From Trypanosoma brucei (taxonomy: Eukaryota), in the NCBI GenBank assembly GCA_000002445.1, contig CH464491.1:576001-640000 (forward strand): a stretch of DNA of 64,000 nt, read 5' to 3'. Both the position numbers and the translations under genes were made by a program. A model generated the notes under the pieces. That model saw only the letters and a list, made by a program, of their open reading frames with translations, made no database searches and was not told where the DNA came from. Positions 1,913 to 41,036 of this stretch are shown piece after piece; the first letter of the stretch is position 1; every line of letters begins with the position of its first letter.

Positions 1913-2475
1913 TGCCTACGTCGTGTTAGTGATCGCCACCGCACACCAACTTAGTGTCCCAAATGATACTTCATGGAGGCGGGACGAGTGCCTCGTTCCC
2001 TCCCGTTGCATTTGTGTGATTTTTTCTTCGTGGTAGTTCGCGGGTGTTGAAAACATGTGGAGTGGGGGTGTATATGGAGAAGCTGGTGGGTAACGCAACT
2101 GTTCTGGTGAAAAATTGGTAAAAAGAAGCAAAAGAAGGTTCTGTTTGGGCAATGGCTGTAGAATGTCAAGGATAAGTAAAACGTGCCGTGTGCTTGTGTG
2201 CATTGTAAAGGTTATCATTAAGTACCGTAAATGAGATGTTGGATGAGGGGATACTTCCTTGGCTATGTAGGGCTTCTCATTTTTCTCATTGTTCATTTTT
2301 ATTGCATCAATGACATGTGAATTTTCAACTTTTTTGTGCGCCTTTTGACAACTATAAGGAAGGGAGGGGTGAAGCTACACACAGGTCGCACACAGCGACG
2401 CGTGCCGACTGCTGGCGCGTTCCGGAGGAACGCAGCGAAGAATCGAATAGGGAAAAAGAAGGATCAACTTTTTAC

Positions 2476-4380
2476 ATGTTTCAAATTGATGTCACCGACG
2501 TTTATTCCGCTCAAACGGAAACAGAGATAGCAAGGCTGTTTGCTTTAGCTGCAAACAGCGATTTCCCCTCCGAGACTCCCACCATCGAAGTGCGTTTACT
2601 GCTGCAAACAGAGAAGGATGGTTCTCAACCGACAGGTGATGTATGGACCCGGCAGGAGCGTGACACGCTGCTACTGTGTTTGGATCGCTCCGTCTCGCGT
2701 GTTTACCCTCCGCTCGACCCACTACAGTACACGCAACCACCACCGGAACTGGAGGTGCGTAACGGGAAACGGGTGGCGCGTATATACGTTACACCAACAG
2801 TCCGTTTGTTTTCCTTTCATTCAACTCCACACTGTGTTGAGGGACGCATGGGTACAGCAAATGGGACTCCTCCTAGTTTACTCACTCCCTTCGCTGAAGG
2901 TGAAGGTGTTAAAGCGAGCGGGGAATTCGAAGACTTTGCCGTTTCTCGGAGTCGGTGGAGGGTTGCTGCGTGGCTGACTGCCCGATTGTTCAATGAGAGT
3001 AGTTGGGTTTCTACCTGTCCCTGTGGTGGACTAAACAATGGGGATGGCACTGTCGCCGTACCTGCTGAGAGGTGTAGTGACGTTATTGATGCTGCAGAGT
3101 GTGACGGGCAAAAGCGGTTGCTTCATGTGGATGTGGCAGGGATGGAGTTCGTTGGGCTCATCACAGCTGTTACGTCACGGTATGCATACGTGGCTGTACC
3201 ACATGAAGAGGAAGGCCAACTGGCTACTAAGTGGGTCCTTGTCAGCCGTGTTAGCGTACCGCCCGCGCTGGAACGCATTGTGGGAAGAGAAACTGTGAAG
3301 AGGCCGAGGGAGGACAGTGAAAGGTCCCGGAGAGAAGAATTTGTGTATGAAAGGGAAGTTATATCTCATGACAACACCCCTTTCAGAGTGCTGCGTGTGG
3401 AGGAGCGTTTGTTGGTCACGCTGCGTGCGCACAAAGTGTATTGCACAAAGCAAAGGCCGGTGTTAGGTCTTCCTAGGGCGGTTTCCGTCTTATTTGAAGA
3501 CGTGGCTGTGGTGAAGAAGGTGGCTGACAGTCTCACTGATGGCGGTGACAGTACCAAAGTTATTCACAAATCATGTTGTAATTCATTTGCGGACGTCCTT
3601 GAAATTGTGAGGGGAAGCTGCAAGCGTTTTCTGCGGGGTTATACCAAATATAAGTTAAACACCAACGGACCTGCGGTCGAGCGCTTATTTAGCGCCCTGA
3701 CCGATACCGTCTCGGTGCAGTCTGTCTGTCACGGTGCGGGGACCCGGCGGCGGCGGCAGCGGCCACCCGTCACTGTCTCGTCTCCACGGGACATCTCTTC
3801 GCTTTATGAGGGAACTTGTGTTGAGTTCAAGGCGAAGGCGAACAAATGGGAGGCCAACTCTATTGAGGATTTCGTTGAGACGGATGTCTTTGGTGATGCG
3901 AGCGCAAGTGCCGGCGGTAATTACCGAAGCACTTCGAGGAAAACGGGCTGCATGAATATGGAGCGTATTCGGCACACCATTGCTGCCATGGCGAGCACGC
4001 TGGGCGGTGTCCTCCTTGTGGGTGTAAGCGACGACGGTAAGGTGTTGGGCCACAGTCCCGATGCGCTGAAGGAACTTCGACTGACTGGCTTCTGCCCAGC
4101 AATGCCGAAGGGCACGGTACAATGTACAACGATGCGAGCTGTGTCGGAAGATGCCCCAGTGACGTTACCAAAGGAATGGTGGAAGAATAAGACTCAGAAT
4201 ATTGGGCAGCGGGTTAATCAGCAGACCAATCTTGTGGTAACAGTGATCACGGTTTCCAGAGGACCAGCCCCAGTCTATACCGTGGCGCGCCACTCTGTGC
4301 CATACATCCGCGGGTTTGCCAGCACCCTCCCACTACATGTCATTTCCGTTACGCGACGTATAACTCCTCTACTGCCATAA
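2476..4380 (+). CDS. hypothetical protein with a C-terminal Schlafen/AlbA_2-like (divergent AAA) domain
   Basis: The longest ORF begins at GTG 2317 and the first in-frame ATG is 2476. A polypyrimidine tract at 2280-2345 lies just upstream. The C-terminal segment MERIRHTIAAMASTLGGVLLVGVSDDGKVLGHSPDALKELRL (from nt 3958) matches the AlbA_2 consensus GGxLxxGVxDdGxvxG. Confidence 0.6.
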   Translation: MFQIDVTDVYSAQTETEIARLFALAANSDFPSETPTIEVRLLLQTEKDGSQPTGDVWTRQERDTLLLCLDRSVSRVYPPLDPLQYTQPPPELEVRNGKRVARIYVTPTVRLFSFHSTPHCVEGRMGTANGTPPSLLTPFAEGEGVKASGEFEDFAVSRSRWRVAAWLTARLFNESSWVSTCPCGGLNNGDGTVAVPAERCSDVIDAAECDGQKRLLHVDVAGMEFVGLITAVTSRYAYVAVPHEEEGQLATKWVLVSRVSVPPALERIVGRETVKRPREDSERSRREEFVYEREVISHDNTPFRVLRVEERLLVTLRAHKVYCTKQRPVLGLPRAVSVLFEDVAVVKKVADSLTDGGDSTKVIHKSCCNSFADVLEIVRGSCKRFLRGYTKYKLNTNGPAVERLFSALTDTVSVQSVCHGAGTRRRRQRPPVTVSSPRDISSLYEGTCVEFKAKANKWEANSIEDFVETDVFGDASASAGGNYRSTSRKTGCMNMERIRHTIAAMASTLGGVLLVGVSDDGKVLGHSPDALKELRLTGFCPAMPKGTVQCTTMRAVSEDAPVTLPKEWWKNKTQNIGQRVNQQTNLVVTVITVSRGPAPVYTVARHSVPYIRGFASTLPLHVISVTRRITPLLP

Positions 4381-6429: not shown

Positions 6430-8796
6430 ATGACTCGAGAAGAGGAGGTATTGGATCTGGGAAAACGATGGTATGAGCGGCCACTCCCTCTACGGGTATG
6501 CAGCCTGAAGGAAGTGGCCAACGACACCACAACGAAGGAGGAGATGGATGCCATGTTCAGTGAAGCGCGGGATATACTCAACCAAGCTACCAACAGGGGT
6601 CACTCAGACAAGGGGCGGTGGTACAACACACAGTTTATCTCACGCGGTACAACTTCGGACAAAATCGCTTCTGCTGCCGTAAAGTTGAGTGACACGGACT
6701 TTATGTTCTTTCTTGAAGGTTTTAATCTTCTGTTTGACACCGCTCGTACGGATACCCACCACTACGAGGCCGCACTGAAAGCACTTGCAGTCATTTGGAC
6801 GAAGCTAATGCCCCGGCGGCCACTGAAGCGGTTTTTTTCCCAGTTCTTTGCCACGCTGCCAGCGAACCCCGCGGATAGGAAAGTTGTTCTTGTATATTGG
6901 TATCTCGAGGATTACCTGAAGCGCACATATGCGCAGTTTCTTTCGCTCGCAGAGGCGATGCTGAAGGATCGTCTGCAGCAGCGTCGCGAAGCATGGTTAG
7001 ATGTGGTTGGAAAGCTTATATGTAACGTTGCCGAGAGCCGCCACGTAGCGATGGCATTAATGGTGGATAAGTTGGGAGATCCGGCGGCACGTGTTGCGCA
7101 CAATGCCTACCATCACCTGCTTGCCCTTCTGCGTGACTCTTCCATTCATCAGGGGGTACTCTTTGTCGAACTTGAGAAGGTAATTTTTATGAAGAACTGC
7201 CCCAAATCCACAATGAAATATGCAACCAACGTTATGAATCAGTTCGTTTACAATAAGGATGAACGGAAACTTGCCTTAAAAGCTATCCAAACATATCTTT
7301 CCATTTTCCGTCAGCTGGCAATCAGTGGTTCTGTGGATCTCTCCGTGACGACAGCTACCATCGTTGGCCTTCGGCGTGCCTTTCCTTATGCTGGCACAGA
7401 TGTTGCCTCGCTAGAGGAGCACCTTAACGCACTATTTGTCATCGCTAACACCGGGAACTTTACACAGCGTGTCACTACGATGTCCTTACTGCAGCTTGTC
7501 GCACTTGGGAAAAGCGCTACGGAGGAGTTTCGTAACCGTTGGTACAGGGCTCTGTACAAGCTACTGCTCATTTCACCAAAGCAGGTATCTCACTCTGCTC
7601 ACATAACGGGTTTCTTCTCGATGCTGCATAAAGCAGTGCGCTTGGACACTAATGACGACAGAATAGCAGCATTCATTCATCGCCTTCTCCAGCGGGCATT
7701 GTTTTTCCATGAATCAATGATATGCGCCATTCTTTTGTTGGTTGGTGACGTGCTGCAAGCTCACCCTCGTCTCCGCTCAGTAATCTTGGGATCCCGCAGA
7801 CCGCCGGTCGTACCAGCAGAGGAGCGTTATGACGTGAAACATCGCGAACCGCAGTATGCGCGGGCAAAGAACGAGTGCTTGTACACACTGGGTGTCCTGG
7901 CGCGCCATTCGCATCCCTCCGTAGTACAGTTGGCTGTGATGTTACTTTTCGGTGAGGAAATTATTTTTGACAGCCACCCTCTAGATGAGCTCACACTAAT
8001 AAACTTCCTGCAAATGTTTGTGGATGCGAAGGCCCACACCCAGCATGGGATAGACAGCGACGTAGCCGCGGCCGAAGCCGTAGGTAAGGCGGGGTCCTCA
8101 GTGTTCCGTCGCGCAACTCACCGGGCGAACCTCCCCAGCGCATCGGATCCTTTTTTTATCAACTCAAGCGTCCAACAAGTTGATGTGTCGGCGTTATTTC
8201 TTCACCGCTACGCCGTGCAACGTCAACGCTTCATTGATGGCCTTTCCCGGGTGCGGTCCACGTGGGGTGACGCGAGTGGCGAGGCGGACGTGGCACTCCG
8301 CGTGTCGGATGTGGACGCATCACTTTTTGGACCTTCTGGCGTGCTTGGGGATCCAGCAGTATCCAAGAAAAAGAATAAGCGTGCAAAGAAGAAGAAGGAA
8401 CGGTTGAAAGAGAAACTTAAGGAAGGAGCTGTGCTCGACGAGTGTGTGGAGGCCATTGGTAGCGAAGAGGTTGAAGGCGGCGAGGATAATTTTTTCGATA
8501 TGGAAGGTAGTGAAGGCGACTTGGAGTGGGGAAGCGGGGATGAGGGAGTAATGATGGACGATGATGAGGATGGGGATGACGGTAATGAAAGGGACGATGA
8601 TGGCGTGGGTTTGGCGCTTAGTCGTCGGGAAAATGCTGATGTTGATGATGGAGAGGACCTTGCAGAGATGCTGGAGGCTCACCGTAACGTTGCGTCTAAG
8701 AAGCGGAGGCGTGAAGAGGCTTGGTTGGAGCGAGTGACGTCGGCAGCAGGTACTAAAGGACCAAACCGAAGGTCCTTTGTGAGCAGAAGGCGGTAA
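6430..8796 (+). CDS. CBF/Mak21-family nucleolar protein (Noc1/Mak21-like ribosome-biogenesis factor)
   Basis: 788-aa ORF starting at ATG 6430. It has a helical-repeat body with a CBF-domain-like segment RIAAFIHRLLQRALFFHESMICAILLLVGDVLQAHPRL. The C-terminus has a basic KKKNKRAKKKKERLKEKLKEG block followed by a long D/E-rich acidic tail, as in nucleolar pre-60S factors. Confidence 0.5.
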   Translation: MTREEEVLDLGKRWYERPLPLRVCSLKEVANDTTTKEEMDAMFSEARDILNQATNRGHSDKGRWYNTQFISRGTTSDKIASAAVKLSDTDFMFFLEGFNLLFDTARTDTHHYEAALKALAVIWTKLMPRRPLKRFFSQFFATLPANPADRKVVLVYWYLEDYLKRTYAQFLSLAEAMLKDRLQQRREAWLDVVGKLICNVAESRHVAMALMVDKLGDPAARVAHNAYHHLLALLRDSSIHQGVLFVELEKVIFMKNCPKSTMKYATNVMNQFVYNKDERKLALKAIQTYLSIFRQLAISGSVDLSVTTATIVGLRRAFPYAGTDVASLEEHLNALFVIANTGNFTQRVTTMSLLQLVALGKSATEEFRNRWYRALYKLLLISPKQVSHSAHITGFFSMLHKAVRLDTNDDRIAAFIHRLLQRALFFHESMICAILLLVGDVLQAHPRLRSVILGSRRPPVVPAEERYDVKHREPQYARAKNECLYTLGVLARHSHPSVVQLAVMLLFGEEIIFDSHPLDELTLINFLQMFVDAKAHTQHGIDSDVAAAEAVGKAGSSVFRRATHRANLPSASDPFFINSSVQQVDVSALFLHRYAVQRQRFIDGLSRVRSTWGDASGEADVALRVSDVDASLFGPSGVLGDPAVSKKKNKRAKKKKERLKEKLKEGAVLDECVEAIGSEEVEGGEDNFFDMEGSEGDLEWGSGDEGVMMDDDEDGDDGNERDDDGVGLALSRRENADVDDGEDLAEMLEAHRNVASKKRRREEAWLERVTSAAGTKGPNRRSFVSRRR

Positions 8797-11226: not shown

Positions 11227-14200
11227 ATGAGCGACTCCATGGGTGAGGGACAGGACCTTGTTCCTATGACCCTTCCGGTGCCGGAGGTTATGCACGTCTC
11301 TGAACTTGATGTTACGGGACCGCTGCAACCTGGTGATGACTGCGCACAGAAGTCGCTCTCGGGTAATCTTCCGGATAAATGCATGTCTGTTTCATTTGCC
11401 AAAAGCTTGAGCGGCGTAGACCTCAGCATTTTGACACGTTCGGCGGGAAATGCGTCTCACACCTCTATCCGAAGTGGCAGTCGTGCGAGGGGGGGCAATA
11501 CAGAATCTTACGAACTCGCTGCTGTCATGGTTAGATCGTACCCACTCATGACCGTTGAGGGAACGGCGTTTTTAAACACAACACGGCCTCCAAGCTCGCT
11601 GGGGGGAACAGAGCCATCCGTGAGTCTTCGGCAAGATGCAGGCAGTCCCTCTGGGGTTGCTACCGACGATGAACCTCTGGGGGAGAGTTGCGTAAACTTG
11701 GCTGAAAGTGGTGAGCACAGTCGGACGTCCGCCAATGTGATGGCAATCGCCACTAGTCTCAAGCGTGCTTGCATGTGGCAGGTCATAATTACAAACTTTT
11801 TAGCGCACCGCGCGTGGATGGAAGCATTTCGCCGAAACAAACTGAGATCAGTTCTTGAGGTGCACCTTCTTCCCGTGATTCTCCGGAGACGTGGTAGAAT
11901 GAATTTGTCAGGACGGTTTACGCGGAGGGTCTGTGTTCAAAAGCCTGAGCTAGTGAGTAGAGATTCGACTGATTTATTGCAAGGCACGTACCTCTACGAC
12001 ACCGTGCCCATCCTAAAGACCTTGAGAAACGTAAAGTTCTGTGAAGCACTTACGGAGACTGTTTTGAAATACCGCTACAGCTGCGGCCAAGCAATAGCAA
12101 GCAGCGGGAATCCGGAGCAGAACGCTTTATATATTCTCGTCTCCGGCAAGTGCGATGCCATCACCCCAGCATCGGAGACAGGTGGAAAGGTGCGACGCCG
12201 ACGTCTCCAACCAGGTGAAACATTCGGTGGGCTATTTGGTGGTAAAGCGATATTCACAGATGTATATAGAGCCATATCTACCTGTGTGGTGTATGTTATT
12301 ACTAGAGAAAAGTTTGAAGAGTTGTTTTCTCAGTACGCTGACAGCAGTATGAAGGAAACATTCCTTGGTGCGTTACGCGACCACGAGATGGTGCGCCTAA
12401 AAAGGTTACACCCTCTACCCCAGTGCATAGCGCGCGTTCCCATATACCGTAAAAGTGAGCAGCTTGCAGGACAGGTCAACGAATACATTAAGGGGTTCAC
12501 ACCATTGGTGCTTTTACAAGGAGATGTGCTCTTTGAGCAGGGAGATCCTCCCGGCGATGTGTTTTGCCTCATTGAGGGGTATGTCCTGCGCGAGCAACTT
12601 GGTCCAGACATGAAGTACGAAAGCGGCACTCGGCAGGTTCTGGCACCGAACGAGCCGAACAATAACTTCGCACTGAGCACGCGGTTCCTGCTATTGGGAG
12701 AGGAGCCGCACATATTGCCGGGTCCGCTGCGCTACCGCTGCACTGTTGCCAGTCGTGCTGCTCTCTTTTTCAAGATCAATAGCGACAGCTTTGTGAATAT
12801 GCTACTGGATGACGCTAGTCTACTCATTAGGCTTCGGCAAAAGTACAAGGAACAACTGCAGCAGTGGATGCGAATTGCTCCCGAGGCACTCAGGCAAGTT
12901 CCCATGTTGGGGGAGATGCCACGACAAAATCTTAATACCATCATTCACGCTGCGGAACCGCGTGTGCTCGAGCGGTACGTTGCTGTGTGTGAGCCAGCTC
13001 GCGTCATCCGGGAGATTTATGTGTTAACGAAGGGCGATGTACGGGACCCGCGTCAATTTGATCATGTGCCAACGCAACCCCCCTCATTACCTCCCACGGA
13101 AAGCGAGTCTGTAGAGGAAGAGGCCGCGGGGAAGCAGCGAAAGGAAAAGGTCACCAAACGTGTGCCCTCCCCACGTGAAAGAAACTCTAAGGCTCAGAAA
13201 ACGGCCCAGCAACCTGTATCGCCGCTGAAGGAAGGCCGTCCGCGGAAAGGAAACAGGTCTGTTGCATCACTCGTTTGCAAATACACCGACGATAATGCAG
13301 TTCAATGGAGTTTTGAAGAGAATACCGAACTGCTGAAGGCTACAATTTATCCCGATGAGCGGCAGGAAATAACACCGCCACTTCCATTAAACCCGGAGAG
13401 GAATATTATCTGCACCATCGGTGGCGGATGGGAAGGCCTTCTACTGGAGAAGTGGCCTACCGGTTGGGAGACGACGACAACGGTGGAACTCTGGGCCATA
13501 CCGACACTGGCCATAAGGACGGAGTTCAACACTTTCCCCAAGGCGGCTCAAAATTCTATTCTTCGTTGCATTGGTGAAGTGCAAATGCGGGAGCTCGATC
13601 TTCCCACCCCGCCGAAGGTGAAGCTTCCACCAATGAGCATCTACACCCCAATCGAAAAGCGGCTAACGAAACCCGGTTTGAATGTTGACAGGGCCCCCCT
13701 TCGTTCACCGCGTAATGTTGGAGGAAGTGGAGCCTCGCACGACCGCTCCACCGCCGGAACCACAAGCAAAATTGGGCGGCAGCAGGCTGATGCTGCAAAT
13801 TCACAATCCAGTTTTACGACGAGGTCGTCGTCATTTTTCTCCGTTGACATCAGCACCGTGAAGCCTCCGCCTTCTGCGCTGACATCCAACAGGGATCCCA
13901 AAACCATGTCACCTAAACCGGCTGCAGTAGACACAAAGGTCCCCACGGTTCCGAAGACCCGCAAACAATTGGCACAGGTAACCGCGGCTGAGTCGGCGCC
14001 TGTTGAACCTCGCAAATCCAAGGCAGTGCCGGCCTCGTTGCTGTTGTTCCAACGGTTTTCCAAGAAAGTGACTGAGGAACCCCCAAAGATCACACCGGAA
14101 CTGCGAGCCATGTATGCTGGAGAGAAACCACAAAAAGGAATTGTACGTGAGTCGCCTCTCATAGAAGCTGACAAGCGACGAAGTCATAGTTGTCTGCCGA

Positions 14201-14568
14201 CGCTGCCCATAACAGCTTCTGCATGGCCGGTGTTGGCTGGAAGGAGGAAGCGGTGGTTTCCGATGGTACCCACGTTTGCACCCCTTCCGGGAACCCTGGA
14301 CAACGCGAACAACAAGGTGGATCCGCCTCATTTGGTCCCTAACACCTCCCACATGGTTATGCGTGAGAAGGGTTATAGGGATGTGCTGCAGTCACAAGTT
14401 GTTTATTTTACTTCGCTAGCAAATAGCAAAGCCTGTGAGGACCCAACGTACCTCTCGGTCTCCCCATGTACAACTGCAAGGTCCCGTTCCTCTCGTCATG
14501 GTGGGTCCACAGCAGCTCACATTGGTGCGGTACTGCCAACGCCTGGCCGGCATGCATACAGCTCTTAG
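11227..14568 (+). CDS. hypothetical protein with two cyclic-nucleotide-binding-like domains and a long disordered C-terminal half
   Basis: 1113-aa ORF starting at ATG 11227. The first cNMP-like domain is YSCGQAIASSGNPEQNALYILVSGKCDAI...LQPGETFGGLFGGKAIFTDVYRAISTCVVYVITREKFEELF (nt ~12070-12330). The second is LLQGDVLFEQGDPPGDVFCLIEGYVLRE (nt ~12500-12800). The C-terminal ~500 aa are S/T/P/K/R-rich low complexity. Confidence 0.6.
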   Translation: MSDSMGEGQDLVPMTLPVPEVMHVSELDVTGPLQPGDDCAQKSLSGNLPDKCMSVSFAKSLSGVDLSILTRSAGNASHTSIRSGSRARGGNTESYELAAVMVRSYPLMTVEGTAFLNTTRPPSSLGGTEPSVSLRQDAGSPSGVATDDEPLGESCVNLAESGEHSRTSANVMAIATSLKRACMWQVIITNFLAHRAWMEAFRRNKLRSVLEVHLLPVILRRRGRMNLSGRFTRRVCVQKPELVSRDSTDLLQGTYLYDTVPILKTLRNVKFCEALTETVLKYRYSCGQAIASSGNPEQNALYILVSGKCDAITPASETGGKVRRRRLQPGETFGGLFGGKAIFTDVYRAISTCVVYVITREKFEELFSQYADSSMKETFLGALRDHEMVRLKRLHPLPQCIARVPIYRKSEQLAGQVNEYIKGFTPLVLLQGDVLFEQGDPPGDVFCLIEGYVLREQLGPDMKYESGTRQVLAPNEPNNNFALSTRFLLLGEEPHILPGPLRYRCTVASRAALFFKINSDSFVNMLLDDASLLIRLRQKYKEQLQQWMRIAPEALRQVPMLGEMPRQNLNTIIHAAEPRVLERYVAVCEPARVIREIYVLTKGDVRDPRQFDHVPTQPPSLPPTESESVEEEAAGKQRKEKVTKRVPSPRERNSKAQKTAQQPVSPLKEGRPRKGNRSVASLVCKYTDDNAVQWSFEENTELLKATIYPDERQEITPPLPLNPERNIICTIGGGWEGLLLEKWPTGWETTTTVELWAIPTLAIRTEFNTFPKAAQNSILRCIGEVQMRELDLPTPPKVKLPPMSIYTPIEKRLTKPGLNVDRAPLRSPRNVGGSGASHDRSTAGTTSKIGRQQADAANSQSSFTTRSSSFFSVDISTVKPPPSALTSNRDPKTMSPKPAAVDTKVPTVPKTRKQLAQVTAAESAPVEPRKSKAVPASLLLFQRFSKKVTEEPPKITPELRAMYAGEKPQKGIVRESPLIEADKRRSHSCLPTLPITASAWPVLAGRRKRWFPMVPTFAPLPGTLDNANNKVDPPHLVPNTSHMVMREKGYRDVLQSQVVYFTSLANSKACEDPTYLSVSPCTTARSRSSRHGGSTAAHIGAVLPTPGRHAYSS

Positions 14569-25710: not shown

Positions 25711-26696
25711 GGGGAGCGGTTCTTCCCATCTGTAGCATCAACTCTGATCTCCTCGTGCCTACATGAGTGCACTCGTATATGGCCCAGAGATAAAAGAGTT
25801 TCTGGGGAGTGATGGATAATGGAAGCAGGAGGTATTTCCTTGCAACTCTTTGTCTTTTCCGTTTTCTCCTTCCCTCCACAAAGTTCTCGCGTAGGTGTTG
25901 CTGCGCGTGAGTGCCACGCAGTACGCGTGCAATGGGGTAGGGTTTGCCTAGATGTGCGAATGCCAGTGTGCGATTGAGAGTTGCTTCGTTACCCCTGCCT
26001 CCGTTAGTTGATACTATTTGTGAACCAAGTTCATTTTCCTTTGGCCTATATTTCCATATTCTTGGTGAAGTTGTAGTGCCATTAGTTATCTATAGGAATC
26101 CGCGCATAACTCAGCTGCCGTTGCGCATTTTTTTGGGTTTAGCTTGTTGAGTGAACAAACTATTATCCCTCCGTGCCGCTACCAAATCCACAAGCGAAAG
26201 TGAGGCGCAGAAACTTGTGTTGAAATTGCTGCGTGACTTTTCTTGTTTTTCATTTTGTGCTAAAATATACACAGTAACGGCGCCAATGAGTTGAAGGTGA
26301 TTTAAGTTCGATCTGGATACTCTTGCTTGCAACTCTCGGAACTTTATATGACGGCAATTGTGTTCGTGTGCGCGATCAGGACATGAAAGTGTTCACATGG
26401 AAGCAAGGGTCACGCTACCAAATCATAATTAGTTAAGAGCACACCCTGAAACAAACAGCTATGAAGATAAAAATATATGTTTACGGTTAATATCTGGACT
26501 CACTCAGCGCATACACTGGCGTACCAACAGGTTGTACTTGGCATGCGCTTGATTTGACGTTTATTTGCACTTCCTCTTGTTGGGCGACGCTGCTCTTCAC
26601 CTTGCTACTGCATTTCTAGGTTGTTTTTAGTTCCGCCGGCTTTGTGTGGTTTCTGTTACATCGGTAGCCTTGCGTTCGTGCGGTTGGACGAGTGTG

Positions 26697-29600
26697 ATGG
26701 CTGGAACCCAGGCAGCAGTGGACTACACCAAAGTGTTGGTGAAGAATACAGTAAGGTTCATCCTCTTAGTTCTGTTTCTCATATCTCTCGTTGTCTCGTT
26801 ACTCCTATGCATGCTTGCTGACATCTTTCAAGCCTACGCCCCCGTCTTCCCATTGTGGCCAATGGTTTTTGCGAGCGTTGCGCTAAACGTTGCGTGTGCT
26901 GTTTCGACTTCGTTGTATCATCGAGTAACGTGCAAGGCTTCTCGTTCTTATAAGAGCTCCGGAAGCAACCATGCATATTTGGCAATGCAAGGTTTCGGGT
27001 ACGGTTTGCTTTTTATTTGTCCGGCGGTGCTGTTCTTATATATTGAACTTTTAGCTTCCCCTGTTGCCGTCTACCGCTACGGATTGATAACAGCACTGGG
27101 TGGTTCATGTGCCGTGGCAAATGGGCTATTGATCGCATCTTTGCGGTACTCCGAAAAGACTCAGCGGCGAGTGAAAGAAGGTGGACTTGGGGGAGGCGAG
27201 AGGCCACAGCGCGACTCCGGTCTGTGGAGGAGACGTTTGTTATTGCTTCCAGACGGCGAGACAGCCATTGTCGTTTTGCTTTGTATCATTGCTCTCACGT
27301 GTTCTATTATTGCGGAGTATTTTACGCACCTGCGCCGTGCGTTGACCATTGTGGGCATGTTGCTTCTCGTAGTTAGTGCGGCTATCACTCGTGTTGGCAC
27401 TGGGTATCGGTCTGCTACCGGCGAGCACCCCTTCTCGATCTCTAGGTGCAGCTTCAGAACGGGTATTGTTCAAGGGCTTGGTTGGTTTCTGGGTGGGGCA
27501 ACGTTGTGTTTCGATTTGGTTTTGTGTAATTCAGGTGCGGGCGCACCTCCGTCTTGGCATATCATCAGTGGGTTAAGTTCGATGGTGAGCGTTGCTGCAC
27601 TCCTGTTTGCAAGGTTTCACCGCTTCACAGAACCTACATTCAAACAAGGCTTGCAGTTGTCCAGTGATGGACCCTACGTAATGACAGCAACAAGTCTATT
27701 TCAACTTACTTTTGTGTGGTGTTTAACGTTACTACTATCTACGGAGTACTGCGAACTAGGTATGCAGTTGAGGCAGGGGCTGATTACGTGTCAAACCCTC
27801 ACAGCGGTATCCATGTTTGCCCTGCCTCTTTGCACTCACTTTCTTGGCCGTGTTGTGTTCGGCAAGGAGTACGGAATATGGATAAGTCTTGACTGCCGGT
27901 TAGAATTCGCAATCTTGCAGCGGTTGGCGTGGTTTTGCTACAGCATAGCCATTTTCTTCGCCGTACTTCACATGACGGAGTCCAACCACTTCAGGTTCGT
28001 TGTCATACAGGCCCTACTGGTCGGAGTTTCTCAATGCCTTGTACATGCGTCGCTTTGGGCATTCGGTGGGGGAACATTGGGGAGATATTCAAGCGATGTT
28101 GAAGATCAAGAGTCTTTATCACGTACTACTTCCACCAAATCCACTTCACAGGAGGAAGACTCAGAGGGGGAAGCCTCCGTATCTTATGAGGGCGGTCGCT
28201 CTGCTCTACCTCTAGTACTGAATGCAGAGATGGTCACCGCCATTGCGGTCTGCGTGTGCGGGATTGCTCTTCGGCTTGTTGCCGATGTGGAGTCCATGGA
28301 TGGCGCATTTGTCGGTGCTCTGTTGGGTGTTCCCCGGAAATCGCTTCTGAATCTTGCAAGGGTCATGGCCACTGTTGCGGTACCGCTTGCTCATATTTCA
28401 TCCAGGGACCGTGTTCCTTTGTGGCAGCCATTTGTTGGCTGTGGTGGTTATGTTTCTATGCAAGCGGTGGGGTGGTCCGTTTACGCGATCAATACGTTGA
28501 TTGAGGCCGCCAATTACTTTCATGAGGAACGCCGGAGTCTTGCGTCTCCGGTATTTGGAACTCAATCTATGCCATTGGAACACACAGTGGATGGTGTATG
28601 CGCTACCGTCCCGTTTATTTGCATATTCCTGGGCTCCTTATTTGAAACATGGGCCCAACAAAGCGAGAAAATTCATCAGCGGAAGATGCAACAGAAGATC
28701 GTGGAGCTTAACAGCTTACTACAGCATGTCATTGCCGATCCGGAGGATCGGGAGCGGACGAAGTCACTTTTGAAGGTTGTAATTGGCCCTCGGTGGAAAG
28801 ATTTGAGAAGTAGCGGAAGTTCCGACGAGGACGAACGCGCCGAGGAGGTGGAAACAAGAAAGGAGGGCATGAGAAATATCGTAGCCATTCTCTGCGTCTG
28901 TGTAATGATGTTGTTTGCGACTTCCGCGTTTTCAGCAACGCACCAACCCGCCTTTACACTTATATTCGGGATATCAGGTATGATGATGACGAGTGTATCG
29001 TGTTTTTCGCTGCAACTTTTTTACGGATCGATCGTGCACGGGGCCACCGGAACCTATTCGTACTTTATGCCATTTTCTGGTGGGCAAAAGTTTGTTGCAT
29101 TCCAGACTGCTGGGTGGTCTTGTTACGCGGCTGCACTATTGTTAATTCTAATAAGTTGTCTCGAAGGTCGCGGTTCGCCCACTGCCTTCGTTTGCATGGG
29201 TTTCTTTAGTGTCGCGGCACAGTTTTTGATTTTGAATTCTATTCCGCATTTTGATTCCACTCCGAGACCGGCTTCGTTGTTGGAACAAAATGCGGAAGCG
29301 GCGCTTGCCGTGTTTGCGCTCGTTGGTTCCTTTACTTTTGGTGTTGTATGGAACGCCTACACAGGCGGTGGCATTCCAGGGCAGGCGCCATCCCCGCTCC
29401 CCATTATTGTTACAGCTATTGCCGCATCGTGTGCTGCACCATTGGGAATCGTGTCTTTGAAGCGCCACATGGAGCGTTCCGCCATGTTCGCCGTCGCTGA
29501 TGGACTGGAAAGTTCCTCCGAGGCAAGTGACGGTGAAGAGGAAATACGCAGTGATGGCCACACGGATGCAATCGCCCATGTAAGTAATGGGAGTGGACAC

Positions 29601-31271
29601 CAGTTCCCCTCTTCATTGATGCAGGGCCAAGTAAACACCGGTGTCGACTCGGAGCGAGGGACAAATGATTCCTTCGACACCCAAGCATCCCGCTCCTTTC
29701 CAGGATCCACCGGATCGTTCGGGAGTGGCAAGCGGTGCCGCTCAGTGCAGCACATGGAGGTCATACCGGGCACATTGTACACGATTTGTCTCATTTTGGC
29801 GCTGCTTGCTACACTGATTTGGGTTATATTCGTCCCGATAGTTCTCTTCTATATGTTCTACTCGTACGCCTACAGTGGACTTGCCGTATTTCACATGACG
29901 TTTACGACATTTCACATTGTGTTGTTCCTGCTTTCCATTGCGGTTGTTACCCCGGTGCTCGTCCAAATAATTTACGACAGACGATGTAAGGGTCTTCGGG
30001 GGAAGTTCTGGAGCCCTCTAGTTGCTTTTACTGTGTACTCCCTACCAACAATTGTGGTTTCAACGGTGCTTGTTGTCTGGACTCAGGTGGACACAATGGG
30101 GGCCGAGGTTTTTGCCCTAAACATGGTATTCATGAGTTGCCTTTCGTTCCTTTCGTGTGCTTATCTGGTGGCGTCACTCTTTAACACATGTTTCCTCGGA
30201 TATGTGCTGCACTTTTATCTCTACACATGTTTGGTTCAGGGGTTGGCGCCTCTTGTCGTTTGGAAGTGCGTCACGGACGTCGGGTTTACAGTGTTTTGGT
30301 TGTGGTACTTACGAGGTTACGGTAAGCTCCCTCACATCACTGGATGCATGTGCGGTGCCAAATCGCGGGACTTGTTCCGTACCTATTTATCACCTGCCAT
30401 TGTCGATTACTTCAGTGCGCGTCTTATTGTTGATGGGAGGGGGAAGGCTGGAAGGGGTAAAACGGTTATATACAGTAATTCCGAGGGGGAGGAGGAAAAT
30501 GCTGGACCTGATCACAATGATCCGTCAAACAAATACATTTATTCCTTTCATCCGCATGGTGTTTTCCCCGGCACCGCACTCTGGTTGCCGATGTCACCGC
30601 AGTGGGAGGAACTGATCGGCCGCAACGAGGAGACCATTGTCACAACACACGGTGCAGATGTGATTTTTGCCGTCCCGTTCATGCGTGACGCGCTTATGTC
30701 AGTTGGCACCATGAGTGTATCGAGGAAAGGAATTGAGAACTGTCTTAAGCAAAACAACAGCCCTATTATTGTGACTGGTGGGATGGCGGAAATGGTGTAT
30801 CAGAAGGGTAGTGACACCGAAATGCACATCGTCATGCATCACAGCGGGTTTGTTCGAATGGCTCTGCAGCATGGGGTGCCTATTGTGCCTATCCTTTGTT
30901 TCGCCGAGCAAAATGTAATGATGAATGTTCCCTTTCCACGTCTACAGAGACTCACCTCGAGAAAGCTTGGCTTTCCATTTCCCACAATGCCGTATGGGAG
31001 ATGGTTTCTTCCCCTTCCACATGCACGGCCACTCACCGTAGTGGTGGGTAAACCAATTCTTCCAGATCCTGCGATGTGCAATGCTGATGACCCTGATCAT
31101 GTAGTACACTACAGACTCCGCTATTTTGGTGAATTGCAGCGGCTTTTCTTCAAGTATCGTGATGAAGCCGGATACCCCAACATGGTGCTTCATCTCCACT
31201 GCCACAACGAGACGCATATTGTGACAGAATTTAAAGGGTCGGAATCAGTTAAAGATGATCAAAACCAATGA
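26697..31271 (+). CDS. large polytopic membrane protein with a C-terminal DGAT2/MGAT-family acyltransferase domain
   Basis: The ORF-track start at 26646 is GTG and the first ATG is 26697 (MAGTQAAV). About 1150 aa of N-terminal multi-pass TM region precede the acyltransferase domain. The DGAT2 signature motifs are YIYSFHPHGVFPG (HPHG, nt ~30550), VTGGMAEMV and HSGFVRMALQHGVPIVPILCFAEQN (RxGFxxxAxxxGxxlVPxxxFGE). Confidence 0.75.
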   Translation: MAGTQAAVDYTKVLVKNTVRFILLVLFLISLVVSLLLCMLADIFQAYAPVFPLWPMVFASVALNVACAVSTSLYHRVTCKASRSYKSSGSNHAYLAMQGFGYGLLFICPAVLFLYIELLASPVAVYRYGLITALGGSCAVANGLLIASLRYSEKTQRRVKEGGLGGGERPQRDSGLWRRRLLLLPDGETAIVVLLCIIALTCSIIAEYFTHLRRALTIVGMLLLVVSAAITRVGTGYRSATGEHPFSISRCSFRTGIVQGLGWFLGGATLCFDLVLCNSGAGAPPSWHIISGLSSMVSVAALLFARFHRFTEPTFKQGLQLSSDGPYVMTATSLFQLTFVWCLTLLLSTEYCELGMQLRQGLITCQTLTAVSMFALPLCTHFLGRVVFGKEYGIWISLDCRLEFAILQRLAWFCYSIAIFFAVLHMTESNHFRFVVIQALLVGVSQCLVHASLWAFGGGTLGRYSSDVEDQESLSRTTSTKSTSQEEDSEGEASVSYEGGRSALPLVLNAEMVTAIAVCVCGIALRLVADVESMDGAFVGALLGVPRKSLLNLARVMATVAVPLAHISSRDRVPLWQPFVGCGGYVSMQAVGWSVYAINTLIEAANYFHEERRSLASPVFGTQSMPLEHTVDGVCATVPFICIFLGSLFETWAQQSEKIHQRKMQQKIVELNSLLQHVIADPEDRERTKSLLKVVIGPRWKDLRSSGSSDEDERAEEVETRKEGMRNIVAILCVCVMMLFATSAFSATHQPAFTLIFGISGMMMTSVSCFSLQLFYGSIVHGATGTYSYFMPFSGGQKFVAFQTAGWSCYAAALLLILISCLEGRGSPTAFVCMGFFSVAAQFLILNSIPHFDSTPRPASLLEQNAEAALAVFALVGSFTFGVVWNAYTGGGIPGQAPSPLPIIVTAIAASCAAPLGIVSLKRHMERSAMFAVADGLESSSEASDGEEEIRSDGHTDAIAHVSNGSGHQFPSSLMQGQVNTGVDSERGTNDSFDTQASRSFPGSTGSFGSGKRCRSVQHMEVIPGTLYTICLILALLATLIWVIFVPIVLFYMFYSYAYSGLAVFHMTFTTFHIVLFLLSIAVVTPVLVQIIYDRRCKGLRGKFWSPLVAFTVYSLPTIVVSTVLVVWTQVDTMGAEVFALNMVFMSCLSFLSCAYLVASLFNTCFLGYVLHFYLYTCLVQGLAPLVVWKCVTDVGFTVFWLWYLRGYGKLPHITGCMCGAKSRDLFRTYLSPAIVDYFSARLIVDGRGKAGRGKTVIYSNSEGEEENAGPDHNDPSNKYIYSFHPHGVFPGTALWLPMSPQWEELIGRNEETIVTTHGADVIFAVPFMRDALMSVGTMSVSRKGIENCLKQNNSPIIVTGGMAEMVYQKGSDTEMHIVMHHSGFVRMALQHGVPIVPILCFAEQNVMMNVPFPRLQRLTSRKLGFPFPTMPYGRWFLPLPHARPLTVVVGKPILPDPAMCNADDPDHVVHYRLRYFGELQRLFFKYRDEAGYPNMVLHLHCHNETHIVTEFKGSESVKDDQNQ

Positions 31272-36783: not shown

Positions 36784-39581
36784 CAAACTGATGGTATCGA
36801 CTTCTGAACAGCGATGGACCTCCACGGGATGGCTCGGTAGCTTTTGTGCCCTTTACTCTTTAAATTTTTAATTATCTATCTATCTCTCTGCCTGTTTCCC
36901 TTTTTTTTTCTTTTACAGTTTTTCCTCCCTCATTATAATTATAATTTCACTTTTCCCCACACGTCGAGGGGCATACGACGTCACGATGGGTTGCCCCACA
37001 AGGCAGTCGAACGGCACTGTTTTCTTTTTTGCTTCCATGTGCATGCATTGCTCAGCTGTGCGGTAATATCATGCGTAGCGGGACATGTCTTTTTCATCAT
37101 CTTGAAAACACGGCCAAAATGTCCCTGTTATTTTCGTCTTTCCTTTCTTAAAAGAAAAAAAAGAAGGTGAAGGAAATTTTATTTCATGTTGTATATAAAT
37201 GTTTATTTGTTTATCCTTTCATCCCCCCTTTACCTTTGCAACGTTCGGATAGAAGGGTAGTCAAATTCCGCGTGTACGGATTTCTCATCACTTCTCCTTC
37301 TTATTACATTACTTGTGTTGTTTTTGCTCCTTTCTTTTCGTTAATTTGCGTGGGCAATTGCGAGGTGAACAACTAATAGATGAGCAAAAGGTAAAATAAA
37401 ATTAAAAAGAAAAATCACAGGCGAGTGGAGAAGTCGGGGTAGGAGGGGAAGCAAAGAGAAGGACGAGAAAACGATTTTATGCCACGTTTGAAACAAGCGC
37501 ACGTACGAAAAACGCAAACACGGAATAATACGGGAATATCACTTTTTTTTTTTCCTTCCATTACCCGCGGGCGTGGCAACTGGCTGTTTTTTTTTTTCCT
37601 TCCCATATGGGGGAGGATTTGTTATGCATTTTGATGTGGGATTCTTAACACTACTTTTCATCCTTGTGCTTTCTTCATGCATAATTGACACGGCGTTATA
37701 ACATATATGTATCTGTGTGTATTTGTCAATATTTCTTTCTTTCTCTTTTTTTTTTTCTCTCTTTATCGTCAAAGTTGTTTATTGCGTCAAGGCGAAAAAG
37801 TAAATCAAACAAACGAAAAAAAAAAAGAAACAAACACAAAAGGTTGTTTGTTGTTGTTGTTTTTTGAGAAAAAGAAAAATGTTCCCCGGCATGCAGCAAC
37901 CGAAGGCACTCCCCATGGGTGAGGCACATACGCAGTTTTGGACTAACTTCAATCGCTTCTTAACTACCAGTGCACTTTCCATCACCGTCTCACTTTTTAT
38001 TCGCTACTGCGAGGGACGCACCAGCGCTGTATTACTTAACGGCATTTAATATTCGAAATATAACACATAAAATAAAGCGGTCACATGTTTTTGGTGGTTT
38101 TGGAGTACACCGGAGGGAGGGATGTGGTGGAAGTGAAGGGATTTTCTTTTTTTTTTTCAAAAAAAATAAAGAAAAAGAAATAAAAAAGGTTTTTGAGAGC
38201 AAAAACAACTGAACAGAGAAGGGAGGATGAAATGAGCGGATTGTTAGCGAAGGGGAGGGGGGGAATGTAAAGGAAAAGTGAGCTCGACAAATGGTGGAAT
38301 TATTAGGTTGAGAAGTGTGTGCATGTAAGGTTGGGGTAAAGAGAAGAAAAAAAAAAAGAAAAAAAATAACAATAGTAATAATAAATAAATAAACAAAAGG
38401 ACACCAAATAGTAAAGAGGTTGAGAGGGTGCAAACTTGTCGAAGCACGTGAGAAGGGGCTCACCATATCATTGGTGGATGACTTTATCCCACTTTGTAGT
38501 ATTCGTGCTGAAAACTCACAGTATATTTCGTGGACTTAAAGTTTCCAATTGTACGAGTGAGTCTCCCCAACTCTAATCTGTCAACCGTTTCTTTTTTGTT
38601 TCTTTTTTTATTTTTTATTCTTCGTTTTTGTTTTTTTTTTATTTACGTTTGCTGCGTGCACATTTTGTTTTATGAATGTGTGTGTGTGTGGGGGGGGGGG
38701 AGGAGGAGGGGTCTGTGCAACAACTCAAATAACCAGTTCCACATCCAGAGCTGTTGATAAAGAAATATTAACGGCAGCCGCTTACTCTTCTGAGTTCGTG
38801 CTTTCTCCTTGCTTTATAATTTTGTACCAAACTTTTGTGGACACGAAGTGGAATAAAATAATAAAACAAGGAAAAGAAAGGAAAAACACAAGAGGGACGA
38901 TGTTTCGGATGTTTTTGTTTTCATCATTTTTATTCCTCCGGTGTTGTTGACCATTTTCTTTATGCAATTTTCCGCCTTATTCCGCTTTGTTCCTCCATTC
39001 TGCTGCCCCGTAATATCGATTTCTTTTTTTGTTTTGTTTTGTTTTTTTGTCTCTGCTTTTTTCCCTCTATTTACCTACTTTTCATTTTGTGTCGTTTTTC
39101 CTTTTCTTTCTTTCTTTATATTTCTTTATATTTATTTCCTTTTCTTTCATTTGATTATTATTGTTATTTTTTTTTTTTACCGTTGCAACGCTCGCAATGT
39201 TTGTGATTCCCCAACTATGCACAGAGGCGTTACGGTTTTGGACTATTTTAGCGAGTGAGTTGAATAAGCGTAACGGAACAACAGTGGAACGATAGGAATG
39301 GTAAGACCGAATACAACATAACACAACTTACCATAACGTAACGTGACAGAAAAGAAAAAGAAAGAAGTGCAACGGAAATTAAAAGGAAAAAGCGGAAGTG
39401 AACTTAAAGCAGCATAAGTCAAATTTGAGTGGACATATATATTATTTGAAGTACAGAAGAGTCAAAGAAAGGAGAGGGAGAAGGTTATCACACCAAAGCC
39501 GAGCGCATAACAACAACAGGAGCAAAACTATTACTATCAGGGTGAATAGACTGATTTTGAAGGGAGAAAATATTGCGGTTT

Positions 39582-40894: not shown

Positions 40895-41014
40895 ACCCAG
40901 CTGCGTCCAAGGAGGGAAGGAGGAAAAAAAAAACAAACAAACAGACAAACTCTGAAGCTTACTGCAGTGAGTTAACCCGCCCGTTTTGTCTTTTTTATGT
41001 GATCATGCGTATAC

Positions 41015-41036
41015 ATATATATATATATATATATAT
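41015..41036. repeat. (AT)n microsatellite
   Basis: catatatatatatatatatatatatg. Confidence 0.9.

What the first reader, a model, noticed from the sequence alone, without database searches (positions are those of the whole stretch)
11227..14568. Large protein with two cyclic-nucleotide-binding-like domains and a roughly 550-aa disordered basic S/T/P-rich tail
Two segments fit the cNMP-binding beta-barrel pattern. Domain A at nt ~12070-12330 contains ...LYILVSGKCDAI...LQPGETFGGLFGGKAIFTDVYRAISTCVVYVITREKFEELF. Domain B at nt ~12500-12800 contains GDVLFEQGDPPGDVFCLIEGYVLRE. Trypanosomatid PKA is cAMP-independent and canonical cAMP effectors are missing, so proteins with CNB-like folds are candidate unconventional cyclic-nucleotide (or nucleoside) effectors. 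The phosphate-binding-cassette residues look degenerate: FGG...YRA replaces FGE...RxA. That makes altered ligand specificity plausible. The long K/R/S/T/P-rich C-terminal half looks like a phospho-regulated or cytoskeleton-binding tail.
Basis: partly seen in the sequence, partly recalled or inferred. Interest (0 to 1): 0.55.

Follow-up and report, generated by a model that had tools for sequence, protein, structure and literature searches.

The report
Orphan trypanosome triple CNB-fold protein
This Trypanosoma brucei gene (by position Tb927.11.2140) encodes an unstudied 123-kDa protein with three, not two, cyclic-nucleotide-binding-type folds, most of whose ligand pockets have lost the residues that normally hold cAMP, so it is a reasonable but unproven candidate for the parasite's poorly understood cAMP-type signalling.

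Summary
The ORF (11227-14568, +, 1113 aa) is real. It is identical to T. b. brucei TREU927 XP_828298.1 and by position is Tb927.11.2140. The two CNB domains are confirmed. Domain A passes Pfam PF00027 alone (40.8 bits). Domain B is supported by a family profile (E~1e-6 to PKA-RI) and, together with A, by Foldseek matches to tandem PKA-R/PKG modules (E~5e-13).

Domain A therefore lacks both canonical contacts, C lacks the Arg, and only B keeps Gly-Glu with a nearby Arg502. The family spans the trypanosomatids. The gene is not any published CARP, FLAM6 or pDAP1, and I found no literature on it.

Best reading: a non-catalytic CNB-array sensor or scaffold anchored through its tail. Ligand binding is unproven. 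It is a new member of a known kind, of moderate interest.

The parts
11227..14568 (+). Complete ORF, 1113 aa (123 kDa, pI 9.4); by position Tb927.11.2140
   Evidence: The ORF is listed. It is identical to TREU927 XP_828298.1/EAN79186.1. The ID is inferred from Tb927.11.2090 = choline kinase at 15-1322 and Tb927.11.2120 = CBF/Mak21 at 6430-8796.
11227..11496 (+). Variable, acidic/Ser-rich N-terminal region (aa 1-90), probably disordered
   Evidence: 19% identity within Trypanosoma; pLDDT 23-27.
11503..11577 (+). Conserved N-terminal motif (aa 93-117; E.LDRAV.MVQTYPLM.VEGTAFEN)
   Evidence: 58% identity in Trypanosoma; invariant E93, A98, M101, V102, P106, T113, A114 and F115. No Pfam match.
11737..11889 (+). 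Conserved long basic helix (aa 171-221; LKRACMW..II.NFLAH.AW.E.FRR.RLR..LE..LLP.ILR.RG)
   Evidence: Modelled as one helix, H171-221, at low confidence (pLDDT ~48-51). 61% identity in Trypanosoma. K179, R202 and L215 are invariant in the 20-member family. Distant homologues align from this helix onward.
11974..12408 (+). CNB-A (aa 250-394). The cassette F333-G334-G335...F343 has Gly at the Glu position and Phe at the Arg position; R348 lies on beta7.
   Evidence: PF00027 40.8 bits alone. pLDDT 70-85 with the beta1-beta8/alphaB/alphaC order. The family profile hits T. cruzi PKA-R at E 1.4e-10, and those residue alignments fix the register.
12412..12870 (+). CNB-B (aa 396-548). Cassette L490-G491-E492-E493-P494-H495-I-L-P-G-P-L501-R502; Gly-Glu is kept and the Arg register is ambiguous.
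   Evidence: Partial PF00027 match, 18.3 bits. The family profile hits PKA-RI/CRP at E~1e-6. A+B align to tandem PKA-R/PKG at E~5e-13. The cassette is modelled at pLDDT 31-37. Conservation: E492 in 16/20, residue 502 is R/K in 17/20.
12871..13092 (+). CNB-C, N-terminal half (aa 549-622: alphaA, beta1-beta4)
   Evidence: pLDDT 85-96. The profile gives weak but consistent hits to the CNB alphaA-beta3 region of MloK1, CNGC, PKG and PKA-RII (E 0.004-0.02).
13093..13362 (+). Disordered, K/R/E-rich insert in the beta4-beta5 loop of CNB-C (aa 623-712)
   Evidence: pLDDT <50. 24% identity in Trypanosoma. Present in all 20 family members at variable length, roughly 85-170 aa.
13363..13662 (+). CNB-C, C-terminal half (aa 713-812): YPDE..PPLP, cassette GGGW735-E736-G737-LLLEK742-W743-PTGW747-E748, beta7-beta8, alphaB, alphaC, and the KLPPMS.Y segment
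13663..14565 (+). True C-terminal tail (aa 813-1113): basic, S/T/P-rich, mostly disordered
   Evidence: STP 32%, net charge +22. pLDDT mostly <50. No Pfam match.
13726..13830 (+). Conserved-serine patch in the tail (aa 834-868; S834, S837, S841, S847, S859, S862, S868)
   Evidence: These serines are at least 90% conserved among Trypanosoma orthologues in otherwise variable sequence. A role as phosphosites is inference only.
14005..14148 (+). Tail motif block 1 (aa 927-974; KPKAGPPPLLF.RK...ITPEL.A.YAG...IIR)
   Evidence: 53% identity in Trypanosoma. A961, Y963, G965 and I972 are invariant in 14 family members. No PDB relative.
14224..14433 (+). Tail motif block 2 (aa 1000-1069; WP...(K/R)(K/R).WF..VP.(F/Y).PLPGT..N...N..M...L...YF)
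   Evidence: 53% identity in Trypanosoma. W1000, P1001, W1010, F1011, V1014, P1015, P1019, L1020, P1021, G1022, N1039 and L1054 are invariant in 14 members. No PDB relative.
14536..14565 (+). Conserved extreme C-terminus (aa 1104-1113; P.PGRHAY)
   Evidence: P1104, P1106, G1107 and R1108 are at least 90% conserved in Trypanosoma.

Best explanation
The gene encodes a trypanosomatid-specific, non-catalytic regulatory or scaffold protein.

Shown:
- Its core is an array of three tandem CNB-fold domains (A, B, and a C domain split by a disordered loop).
- The array is preceded by a conserved basic helix.
- It is followed by a ~300-aa basic, Ser/Thr/Pro-rich, largely disordered tail that carries conserved short motif blocks.
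- No catalytic or other known domain is present.

Inferred mechanism:
- The CNB array acts as a conformational switch.
- Domains A and C have lost the canonical phosphate-clamping Arg, and A has also lost the ribose-binding Glu. They would then behave as CNB-homology modules that contribute intramolecular or partner contacts rather than classical cAMP binding.
- Domain B keeps Gly-Glu and has a conserved Arg/Lys next to the canonical Arg position. It is the only plausible site for a cyclic-nucleotide-like ligand.
- The conserved tail blocks and the conserved-serine patch would anchor the protein to partners and place it under phospho-control. By analogy with every other characterised trypanosome CNB protein, those partners are most likely flagellar or cytoskeletal.

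My estimates: about 0.9 for the architecture, about 0.3 for nucleotide binding at B, about 0.35 for a flagellar or cytoskeletal location.
For: Architecture:
- PF00027 hit.
- A+B match tandem PKA-R/PKG modules at E~5e-13.
- No other Pfam family appears in any of the 20 family members.

Cassette states:
- Residue-level HMMER alignments of A to solved PKA-R/PKG.
- hhalign of C onto A.
- Family conservation of G491-E492 and R/K502 in B.

Functional constraint:
- Full-length orthologues occur across Trypanosoma, Angomonas and Leptomonas, with more distant environmental kinetoplastid-like sequences.
- The C cassette and the tail blocks contain residues that are invariant down to 23% overall identity.

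Analogy:
- CARP1 has three CNBDs, the third split, and binds cAMP. CARP11 has a CNBD with insertions and binds cAMP. Both are predicted to be flagellar (PMC10354285).
- FLAM6 and pDAP1 are CNB-like proteins bound to the proximal outer-dynein-arm docking complex (PMC11971395).

Against: - No binding, localisation or phenotype data exist for this gene in anything I could search.
[quoted passage not shown] That argues against a major role in cAMP toxicity in bloodstream forms.
- B's cassette is proline-rich (GEEPHILPGP) and modelled at pLDDT 31-37, and its register is ambiguous. With no indel, the canonical Arg position (Glu+9) is Leu501. Three Leishmaniinae-type sequences have Pro at 502.
- No identical chain exists in the PDB copy, so the protein is not a modelled component of any solved structure in that copy.
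- The full-length model is poor (mean pLDDT 41, 11 sequences), so the domain arrangement and the helix are not established.
Confidence: 0.5

Rival explanations
1. Ligand-free pseudo-receptor. All three domains are CNB-homology domains, as in KCNH or CNNM proteins. They bind no nucleotide and serve only as protein-protein or intramolecular docking modules, possibly with an intrinsic ligand occupying a pocket.
For: - A lacks both Glu and Arg. C lacks the Arg and has invariant Trp residues in and around the pocket. B's cassette is proline-rich and of uncertain register.
- The conserved KLPPMS.Y segment after alphaC is modelled with confidence (pLDDT ~89). It sits where KCNH channels carry their intrinsic ligand; that comparison is from my own knowledge.
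- The gene is absent from the cAMP-resistance screen.
Against: - B keeps Gly-Glu in 16/20 sequences and a basic residue at 502 in 17/20.
- Strong conservation of the cassettes is equally compatible with a specific small-molecule ligand.
- CARP11 binds cAMP despite large insertions in its CNBD (PMC10354285), so unusual CNBDs in this organism can still bind.
Confidence: 0.33
2. The protein has two CNB domains whose degenerate cassette (FGG...YRA) confers altered ligand specificity, such as a nucleoside as in trypanosome PKA-R, and it has a ~550-aa disordered phospho-regulated tail.
For: - Both CNB domains are real.
- The best PDB sequence hit of domain A is the nucleoside-binding T. cruzi PKA-R (6ftf, E 1.4e-10).
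- Loss of the Arg has precedent in the same organism (PMC10959531).
- The last 300 aa are basic and S/T/P-rich.
Against: - There is a third CNB fold inside the supposed tail.
- YRA is mis-registered.
- The decisive nucleoside determinant of PKA-R is the second Glu of G-E-L-E, which sits at the Ala202 position. It is absent from A (G-G-L-F), B (G-E-E-P) and C (W-E-G-L-L).
- A also lacks the first Glu, which PKA-R keeps.
Confidence: 0.1
3. A canonical cAMP effector of the CARP1 type. The protein binds cAMP with sub-micromolar affinity and relays flagellar cAMP signals.
For: - It has the same overall layout as CARP1: an N-terminal region of ~230-250 aa, then three CNBDs with the third split by an insertion.
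- B keeps Gly-Glu and a nearby Arg.
Against: - CARP1's binding is attributed to a consensus cassette in its CNBD-A (R320). Here domain A is the most degenerate.
- No protein of ~705 aa is among the 29 phmmer hits in 1.84 billion representatives, so CARP1 is not a detectably close paralogue.
- The gene was not recovered in the screen that found CARP1-11.
Confidence: 0.15

Closest known systems
CARP1 (Tb927.11.16210), T. brucei cAMP response protein 1
   Same: Both are kinetoplastid-restricted and non-catalytic. Both have an N-terminal region followed by three CNB domains, with the third interrupted by an insertion. In both, the later domains deviate at the cassette Arg: CARP1 has K459 and Y629, here L501/R502 and W743 (PMC10354285).
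   Different: CARP1 is 705 aa, lacks the long tail, and has a consensus cassette in CNBD-A (R320); it binds cAMP at ~30 nM. Here domain A lacks both Glu and Arg. No CARP1-sized protein appears among the sequence hits. This gene was not a screen hit. I could not obtain the CARP1 sequence, so direct homology was not tested.
Tandem CNB-A/B module of PKA regulatory subunits and PKG
   Same: This is the best structural match of domains A+B (Foldseek E~5e-13 over ~280-330 columns). It is also the best sequence match of the domain A and B profiles.
   Different: There is no docking/dimerisation domain. There is no conserved inhibitor or pseudosubstrate site: T. brucei RRVCV at aa 233-237 is not conserved. 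There is a third CNB fold, non-consensus cassettes and a long tail. The genuine T. brucei PKA-R is a different gene, Tb927.11.4610.
CARP11 (Tb927.7.2320)
   Same: It is a CNB fold interrupted by long insertions and is still functional in binding cAMP at ~300 nM. This shows that split CNBDs are tolerated in trypanosomes.
   Different: CARP11 has a single CNBD with a consensus cassette (R520), is 605 aa, has a different N-terminus (MSIVNQ...) and is on a different chromosome.
FLAM6 (Tb927.3.5020) and pDAP1 (Tb927.11.15730)
   Same: Both are large trypanosomatid proteins with predicted CNB-like domains and no catalytic domain. They act as accessory proteins of the proximal outer-dynein-arm docking complex and tune beat frequency (PMC11971395).
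   Different: They are different genes and sizes (1898 and 958 aa). pDAP1 has no PF00027 hit. This gene is not in that study's table of asymmetrically localised proteins, and its localisation is unknown.
CNB-homology domains of KCNH and CNNM proteins
   Different: They are parts of channels or transporters. Whether any pocket here is self-occupied could not be examined.

Membership tests
CNB domain (Pfam PF00027 / CNB fold) | Sequence match to PF00027 above the gathering score | tested here: met
   The whole protein scores 51 bits against a cutoff of 27.5. Domain A alone scores 40.8 bits over profile positions 3-89. Domain B alone scores 18.3 bits, below the cutoff. Domain C has no Pfam hit. 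All 20 family members hit PF00027.
CNB domain (Pfam PF00027 / CNB fold) | Eight-stranded beta-barrel flanked by alphaA and alphaB/alphaC, matching solved CNB domains | tested here: met
Functional cNMP-binding CNB (consensus phosphate-binding cassette F-G-E-[LIV]-A-L-x(4)-[PV]-R-x-A) | Cassette Glu that contacts the ribose 2'-OH | tested here: inconclusive
   A: not met, Gly335, invariant in the trypanosomatid-type sequences. B: met, E492 in 16/20 and acidic in 18/20. C: E736 is invariant, but hhalign places it at the Gly position with G737 at the Glu position.
Functional cNMP-binding CNB (consensus phosphate-binding cassette F-G-E-[LIV]-A-L-x(4)-[PV]-R-x-A) | Cassette Arg that clamps the cyclic phosphate | tested here: not met
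   A: Phe343, F/Y in all 16 trypanosomatid-type members; R348 aligns to the beta7 Lys/Arg at Arg+5. C: Trp743, or Thr745 in the alternative register; never basic. B: ambiguous. Glu+9 is Leu501 and Arg502 is adjacent (R/K in 17/20); the region is modelled at pLDDT 31-37.
Functional cNMP-binding CNB (consensus phosphate-binding cassette F-G-E-[LIV]-A-L-x(4)-[PV]-R-x-A) | Measured, competable binding of cAMP or cGMP | not testable with these tools
   This needs recombinant protein and cAMP-agarose, ITC or nanoDSF.
CARP set (cAMP response proteins of T. brucei) | Knock-down recovered in, and confirmed to confer, resistance to PDE inhibitor NPD-001/CpdA | tested here: not met
   The published list is CARP1-4 and 6-11, with IDs and lengths. 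None is Tb927.11.2140 or 1113 aa. The nearest in size, CARP8 (Tb927.11.3910, 1108 aa), has no detectable domain. CARP11 begins MSIVNQ. Absence from a screen does not prove absence of a phenotype.
Trypanosomatid PKA-R-type nucleoside-binding CNB (ribose-binding cassette) | G-E-L-E motif (second Glu at the Ala202 position) with the Arg replaced by a polar residue followed by Val-Ala | tested here: not met
   The published cassettes are GELELMYQTPTVA and GELEFLNNHANVA, and the second Glu is worth ~1500-fold in inosine potency. Here A is G-G-L-F, B is G-E-E-P and C is W-E-G-L-L.
PKA regulatory subunit | Conserved inhibitor or pseudosubstrate site (R-R-x-S/A/G-hydrophobic) N-terminal to CNB-A, exactly two CNB domains, and an N-terminal docking domain | tested here: not met
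   RRVCV (aa 233-237) occurs only in T. brucei; orthologues have VRKPSS, FFRPHP, FRRSQC and so on. There are three CNB folds. There is no other Pfam domain.
CNB-homology domain (nucleotide-free, KCNH/CNNM type) | CNB fold lacking the nucleotide-contacting residues, with the pocket occupied by an intrinsic ligand or unused | tested here: inconclusive
   Fold and loss of the Arg are met for A and C.

The most novel reading that the evidence does not exclude
The split third domain is the business end. Its aromatic cassette (GGGW-E-G-LL.EKW..GWE) lacks the Arg and is invariant across the family. It may bind a ligand that is not a cyclic nucleotide, or it may clasp a conserved intrinsic or partner peptide such as the KLPPMS.Y segment or a tail block. 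In that reading the family is a kinetoplastid-specific signalling switch that re-uses the CNB fold for a new input, as trypanosome PKA-R did for nucleosides.
Probability: 0.15. Interest if true: 0.7.

Novelty: new member of a known kind. Interest (0 to 1): 0.4.

Why it matters
Trypanosomes make and degrade cAMP, and their cAMP phosphodiesterases are validated drug targets. Yet their PKA ignores cAMP, and classical effectors are missing. The few known cAMP binders (CARP1, CARP11) and CNB-like axonemal proteins (FLAM6, pDAP1) are kinetoplastid-specific.

This gene adds an unstudied family to that short list. It is conserved across the trypanosomatids and has three CNB folds. The work here also gives a concrete map for experiments:
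- which cassette could still bind a nucleotide (B);
- which two almost certainly cannot bind one in the canonical way (A and C);
- which tail motifs to mutate.

If B binds cAMP, the protein is a new effector candidate. If nothing binds, it is a clean example of the CNB fold re-used as a structural or interaction module. Either result narrows the search for how cAMP acts in these parasites.

Tried and rejected
1. Is it a published CARP? I checked it against CARP1-11 by ID, length, N-terminal sequence and domain content. It is none of them.
2. Is it FLAM6 or pDAP1? No. They are different genes and sizes.
3. Is CARP1 in this window? No. No other window ORF has PF00027.
4. Literature by accession (XP_828298, EAN79186, D0A616, Q4E3B4 and others): no hits. 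By old IDs Tb11.18.0011-0014: nothing. By Tb927.11.2130/2140/2150: nothing in main texts.
5. The held TrypTag supplements and CARP supplements have no entry. The files may be truncated, so this is uninformative.
6. Jäger et al. 2014, the T. cruzi CNB inventory (PMC8486353), is not held.
7. A profile search of the 5.8-billion-protein set with the full family alignment returned only the same 10 Trypanosoma proteins. With the spliced domain C profile it returned nothing.
I replaced it with the native-insert version.
9. The afdb50 fold library is not installed.
10. The conserved C-terminal block has no PDB relative, and there is no Pfam family for the N-terminal region or the tail.
11. PKA-R-like inhibitor site: RRVCV in T. 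brucei is not conserved, so I rejected it.
12. My own first cassette alignment put R348 as the domain A Arg with a 4-residue insertion, and T745 as the domain C Arg. I abandoned it for A, and downgraded it for C, once the HMMER and hhalign registers anchored on beta7-beta8 were available.
13. The weak PTHB1 platform-domain hit (12-15 bits, below the cutoff) lies inside CNB-B, and I disregarded it.

Full report
**What is there.** The window carries an ATG-initiated ORF at 11227-14568 on the + strand, encoding 1113 aa. This matches the finding exactly, and the quoted peptides are present. The protein is identical to T. b. brucei TREU927 XP_828298.1/EAN79186.1 and differs at four residues from the T. 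b. gambiense entry. All sizeable ORFs in the window are on the + strand: choline kinase, an AlbA_2-like protein, Snf7, CBF/Mak21, RPN3, this gene, then DAGAT, carnitine acyltransferase, a WD40 protein, ALIX/BRO1 and eRF1. This is the layout of one trypanosome polycistronic unit. Two papers fix the numbering. Tb927.11.2090 is the chromosome-11 choline kinase (old ID Tb11.18.0017). Tb927.11.2120 is a CBF/Mak21 protein. Counting in steps of ten makes this ORF Tb927.11.2140, which is an inference from position.

**The two reported CNB domains are real.** Pfam PF00027 scores 51 bits for the whole protein (E 1.5e-13, cutoff 27.5). Domain A (aa 283-370) alone scores 40.8 bits over the full profile. 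Domain B alone matches only profile positions 4-33 at 18.3 bits, below the cutoff. A 20-sequence family profile of B, however, hits PKA-RI, PKG and CRP/FNR CNB domains at E~1e-6. In a full-length AlphaFold2 model (11 sequences, mean pLDDT 41), domain A is confident (pLDDT 70-85) and B moderate (45-78). Both show the expected order of strands and helices. Foldseek against the PDB returns tandem CNB-A/B modules of PKA regulatory subunits and PKG as the top hits, all 50 listed at probability 1.00 (E from 4.7e-13 to about 2e-9), over ~280-330 columns.

**The cassettes.**
HMMER alignments of the domain A family profile to solved TgPKA-R, PKG I-beta and PfPKA-R agree that FGG lies on FGE, so Gly335 replaces the ribose-binding Glu. 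They run without a gap through beta7-beta8. That places the cassette Arg opposite Phe343, and places "YRA" on the "V-K/R-A" of beta7, five residues later. Position 343 is Phe or Tyr in all 16 trypanosomatid-type sequences. Domain A therefore lacks both canonical contacts.
- *Domain C.* hhalign maps domain C onto A with W735-E736-G737 on F-G-G, W743 on F343 and E748 on R348. In the only alternative register the Arg position is Thr745. Neither residue is basic. G733, E736, L738, K742, W743, W747 and E748 are nevertheless invariant in 20 sequences that fall to 23% overall identity. This pocket is under strong constraint and is not decaying.
- *Domain B.* G491-E492 directly follow beta6, as in the consensus. 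E492 is kept in 16/20 sequences. Glu+9 is Leu501, and the next residue, 502, is Arg or Lys in 17/20. The cassette is proline-rich (GEEPHILPGP) and modelled at pLDDT 31-37, and the profile-profile register has only 25% probability. B is the only candidate for canonical-type binding, and a weak one.
- *Nucleoside signature.* The published nucleoside signature of trypanosome PKA-R is G-E-L-E with a polar residue replacing the Arg. The second Glu is decisive for inosine potency. It is absent from all three domains.

**Distribution and relatives.** A word-free phmmer scan of 1.84 billion representatives found only 29 hits. About 20 of them are full-length relatives at 23-47% identity, aligning from the N-terminal helix to tail block 2. 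Named members include Trypanosoma species, Angomonas deanei and Leptomonas pyrrhocoris. Others are unnamed environmental or read-archive assemblies. Every one of the 20 aligned members hits PF00027 and nothing else. None of the 29 hits is about 705 aa, so CARP1 is not a detectably close paralogue.

**Comparison with what is known.** The CARP screen papers list CARP1-4 and 6-11 with IDs and lengths. This gene is none of them. CARP1 shares the layout of three CNBDs with the third split. It has a consensus cassette in its first domain and binds cAMP at ~30 nM. CARP11 binds at ~300 nM despite insertions. FLAM6 (Tb927.3.5020, 1898 aa) and pDAP1 (Tb927.11.15730, 958 aa) are CNB-like accessory proteins of the proximal outer-dynein-arm docking complex, and this gene is neither. 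I found no paper that mentions the gene by any accession or ID, and no entry in the held TrypTag or CARP supplements. Databases already name it a "cyclic nucleotide-binding domain-containing protein".

**Mechanism.** Shown: a non-catalytic protein with a conserved helix, three CNB folds and a motif-bearing basic tail. Inferred: the CNB array is a conformational switch. In that reading A and C act as CNB-homology modules and B is the only possible nucleotide site. The tail would anchor the protein, probably to flagellar or cytoskeletal partners as with the other trypanosome CNB proteins, and would be phospho-regulated. The main rival is that none of the pockets binds a small molecule. The nucleoside-sensor and CARP1-like readings are less likely for the reasons above. 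The most novel reading not excluded is that the invariant aromatic pocket of domain C recognises a non-cyclic-nucleotide ligand or an intrinsic peptide.

**Verdict.** The feature is a genuine, conserved, unstudied member of the kinetoplastid multi-CNB protein class, so it is a new member of a known kind. Interest is moderate (0.4). It is not surprising to a specialist and is already annotated at the domain level. It is a concrete, testable candidate for an open question, and the corrected domain map changes which experiments make sense.

Noticed in passing
window 56362-58754 (inside ORF 55156-59475, +): A 51-bp tandem repeat of 46.9 copies at 98% identity, which encodes a 17-aa repeat, lies in a 1439-aa ORF with no Pfam hit. 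It explains the cluster of long ORFs in several frames on both strands, and the GC 0.56 and AT-skew 0.23 at 56-58 kb.
   Followed up: partly
P0010 (T. vivax orthologue), aligned to window aa ~572 onward: The T. vivax entry is only 638 aa. After about aa 572 it diverges into unrelated sequence, which looks like a frameshift or annotation break rather than a genuinely truncated orthologue.
   Followed up: no
CNB-A beta4-beta5 loop, window aa ~313-322 (nt ~12163-12192); orthologues P0028-P0035: In non-Trypanosoma orthologues the beta4-beta5 loop of CNB-A also carries low-complexity insertions, up to ~200 aa in P0035. This is the same loop that is split in CNB-C, and insertions in the CNBD are also reported for CARP1 CNBD-C and CARP11 (PMC10354285).
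   Followed up: partly
PDB 9ya0 chain MA (Toxoplasma PCR12, TGME49_219070), hit of the domain C profile: The best sequence hit of the domain C profile is a 2736-aa Toxoplasma protein deposited as PCR12. It shows at least five weak CNB-alphaA/beta1-3-like repeats (whole-sequence E 0.0039, no single stretch significant). It may be another example of a multi-CNB protein without a catalytic domain.
   Followed up: no
window 26646-31271 (+): In this 1541-aa ORF, the DAGAT/acyltransferase domain occupies only the last ~250 aa, leaving a ~1290-aa N-terminal region with no Pfam match. The listed start is GTG, so the real ATG start may be further downstream.
   Followed up: no
window 2317-4380 (+): This 687-aa ORF has a marginal Schlafen/AlbA_2 domain hit (27.8 bits against a cutoff of 25.3) at its C-terminus.
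   Followed up: no
window 36800-41650 and 42530-48230: These are two long stretches without any ORF of 250 aa or more. They contain the lowest GC in the window (0.38-0.39 at 38-40 kb and 46-48 kb). They may be long intergenic or UTR regions, or they may hold only small genes.
   Followed up: no
window aa 233-237 (nt 11923-11937): T. brucei has RRVCV about 15 residues before CNB-A, which resembles the RII-type PKA inhibitor site RRVSV. The motif is not conserved in any orthologue, so it is probably fortuitous.
   Followed up: yes
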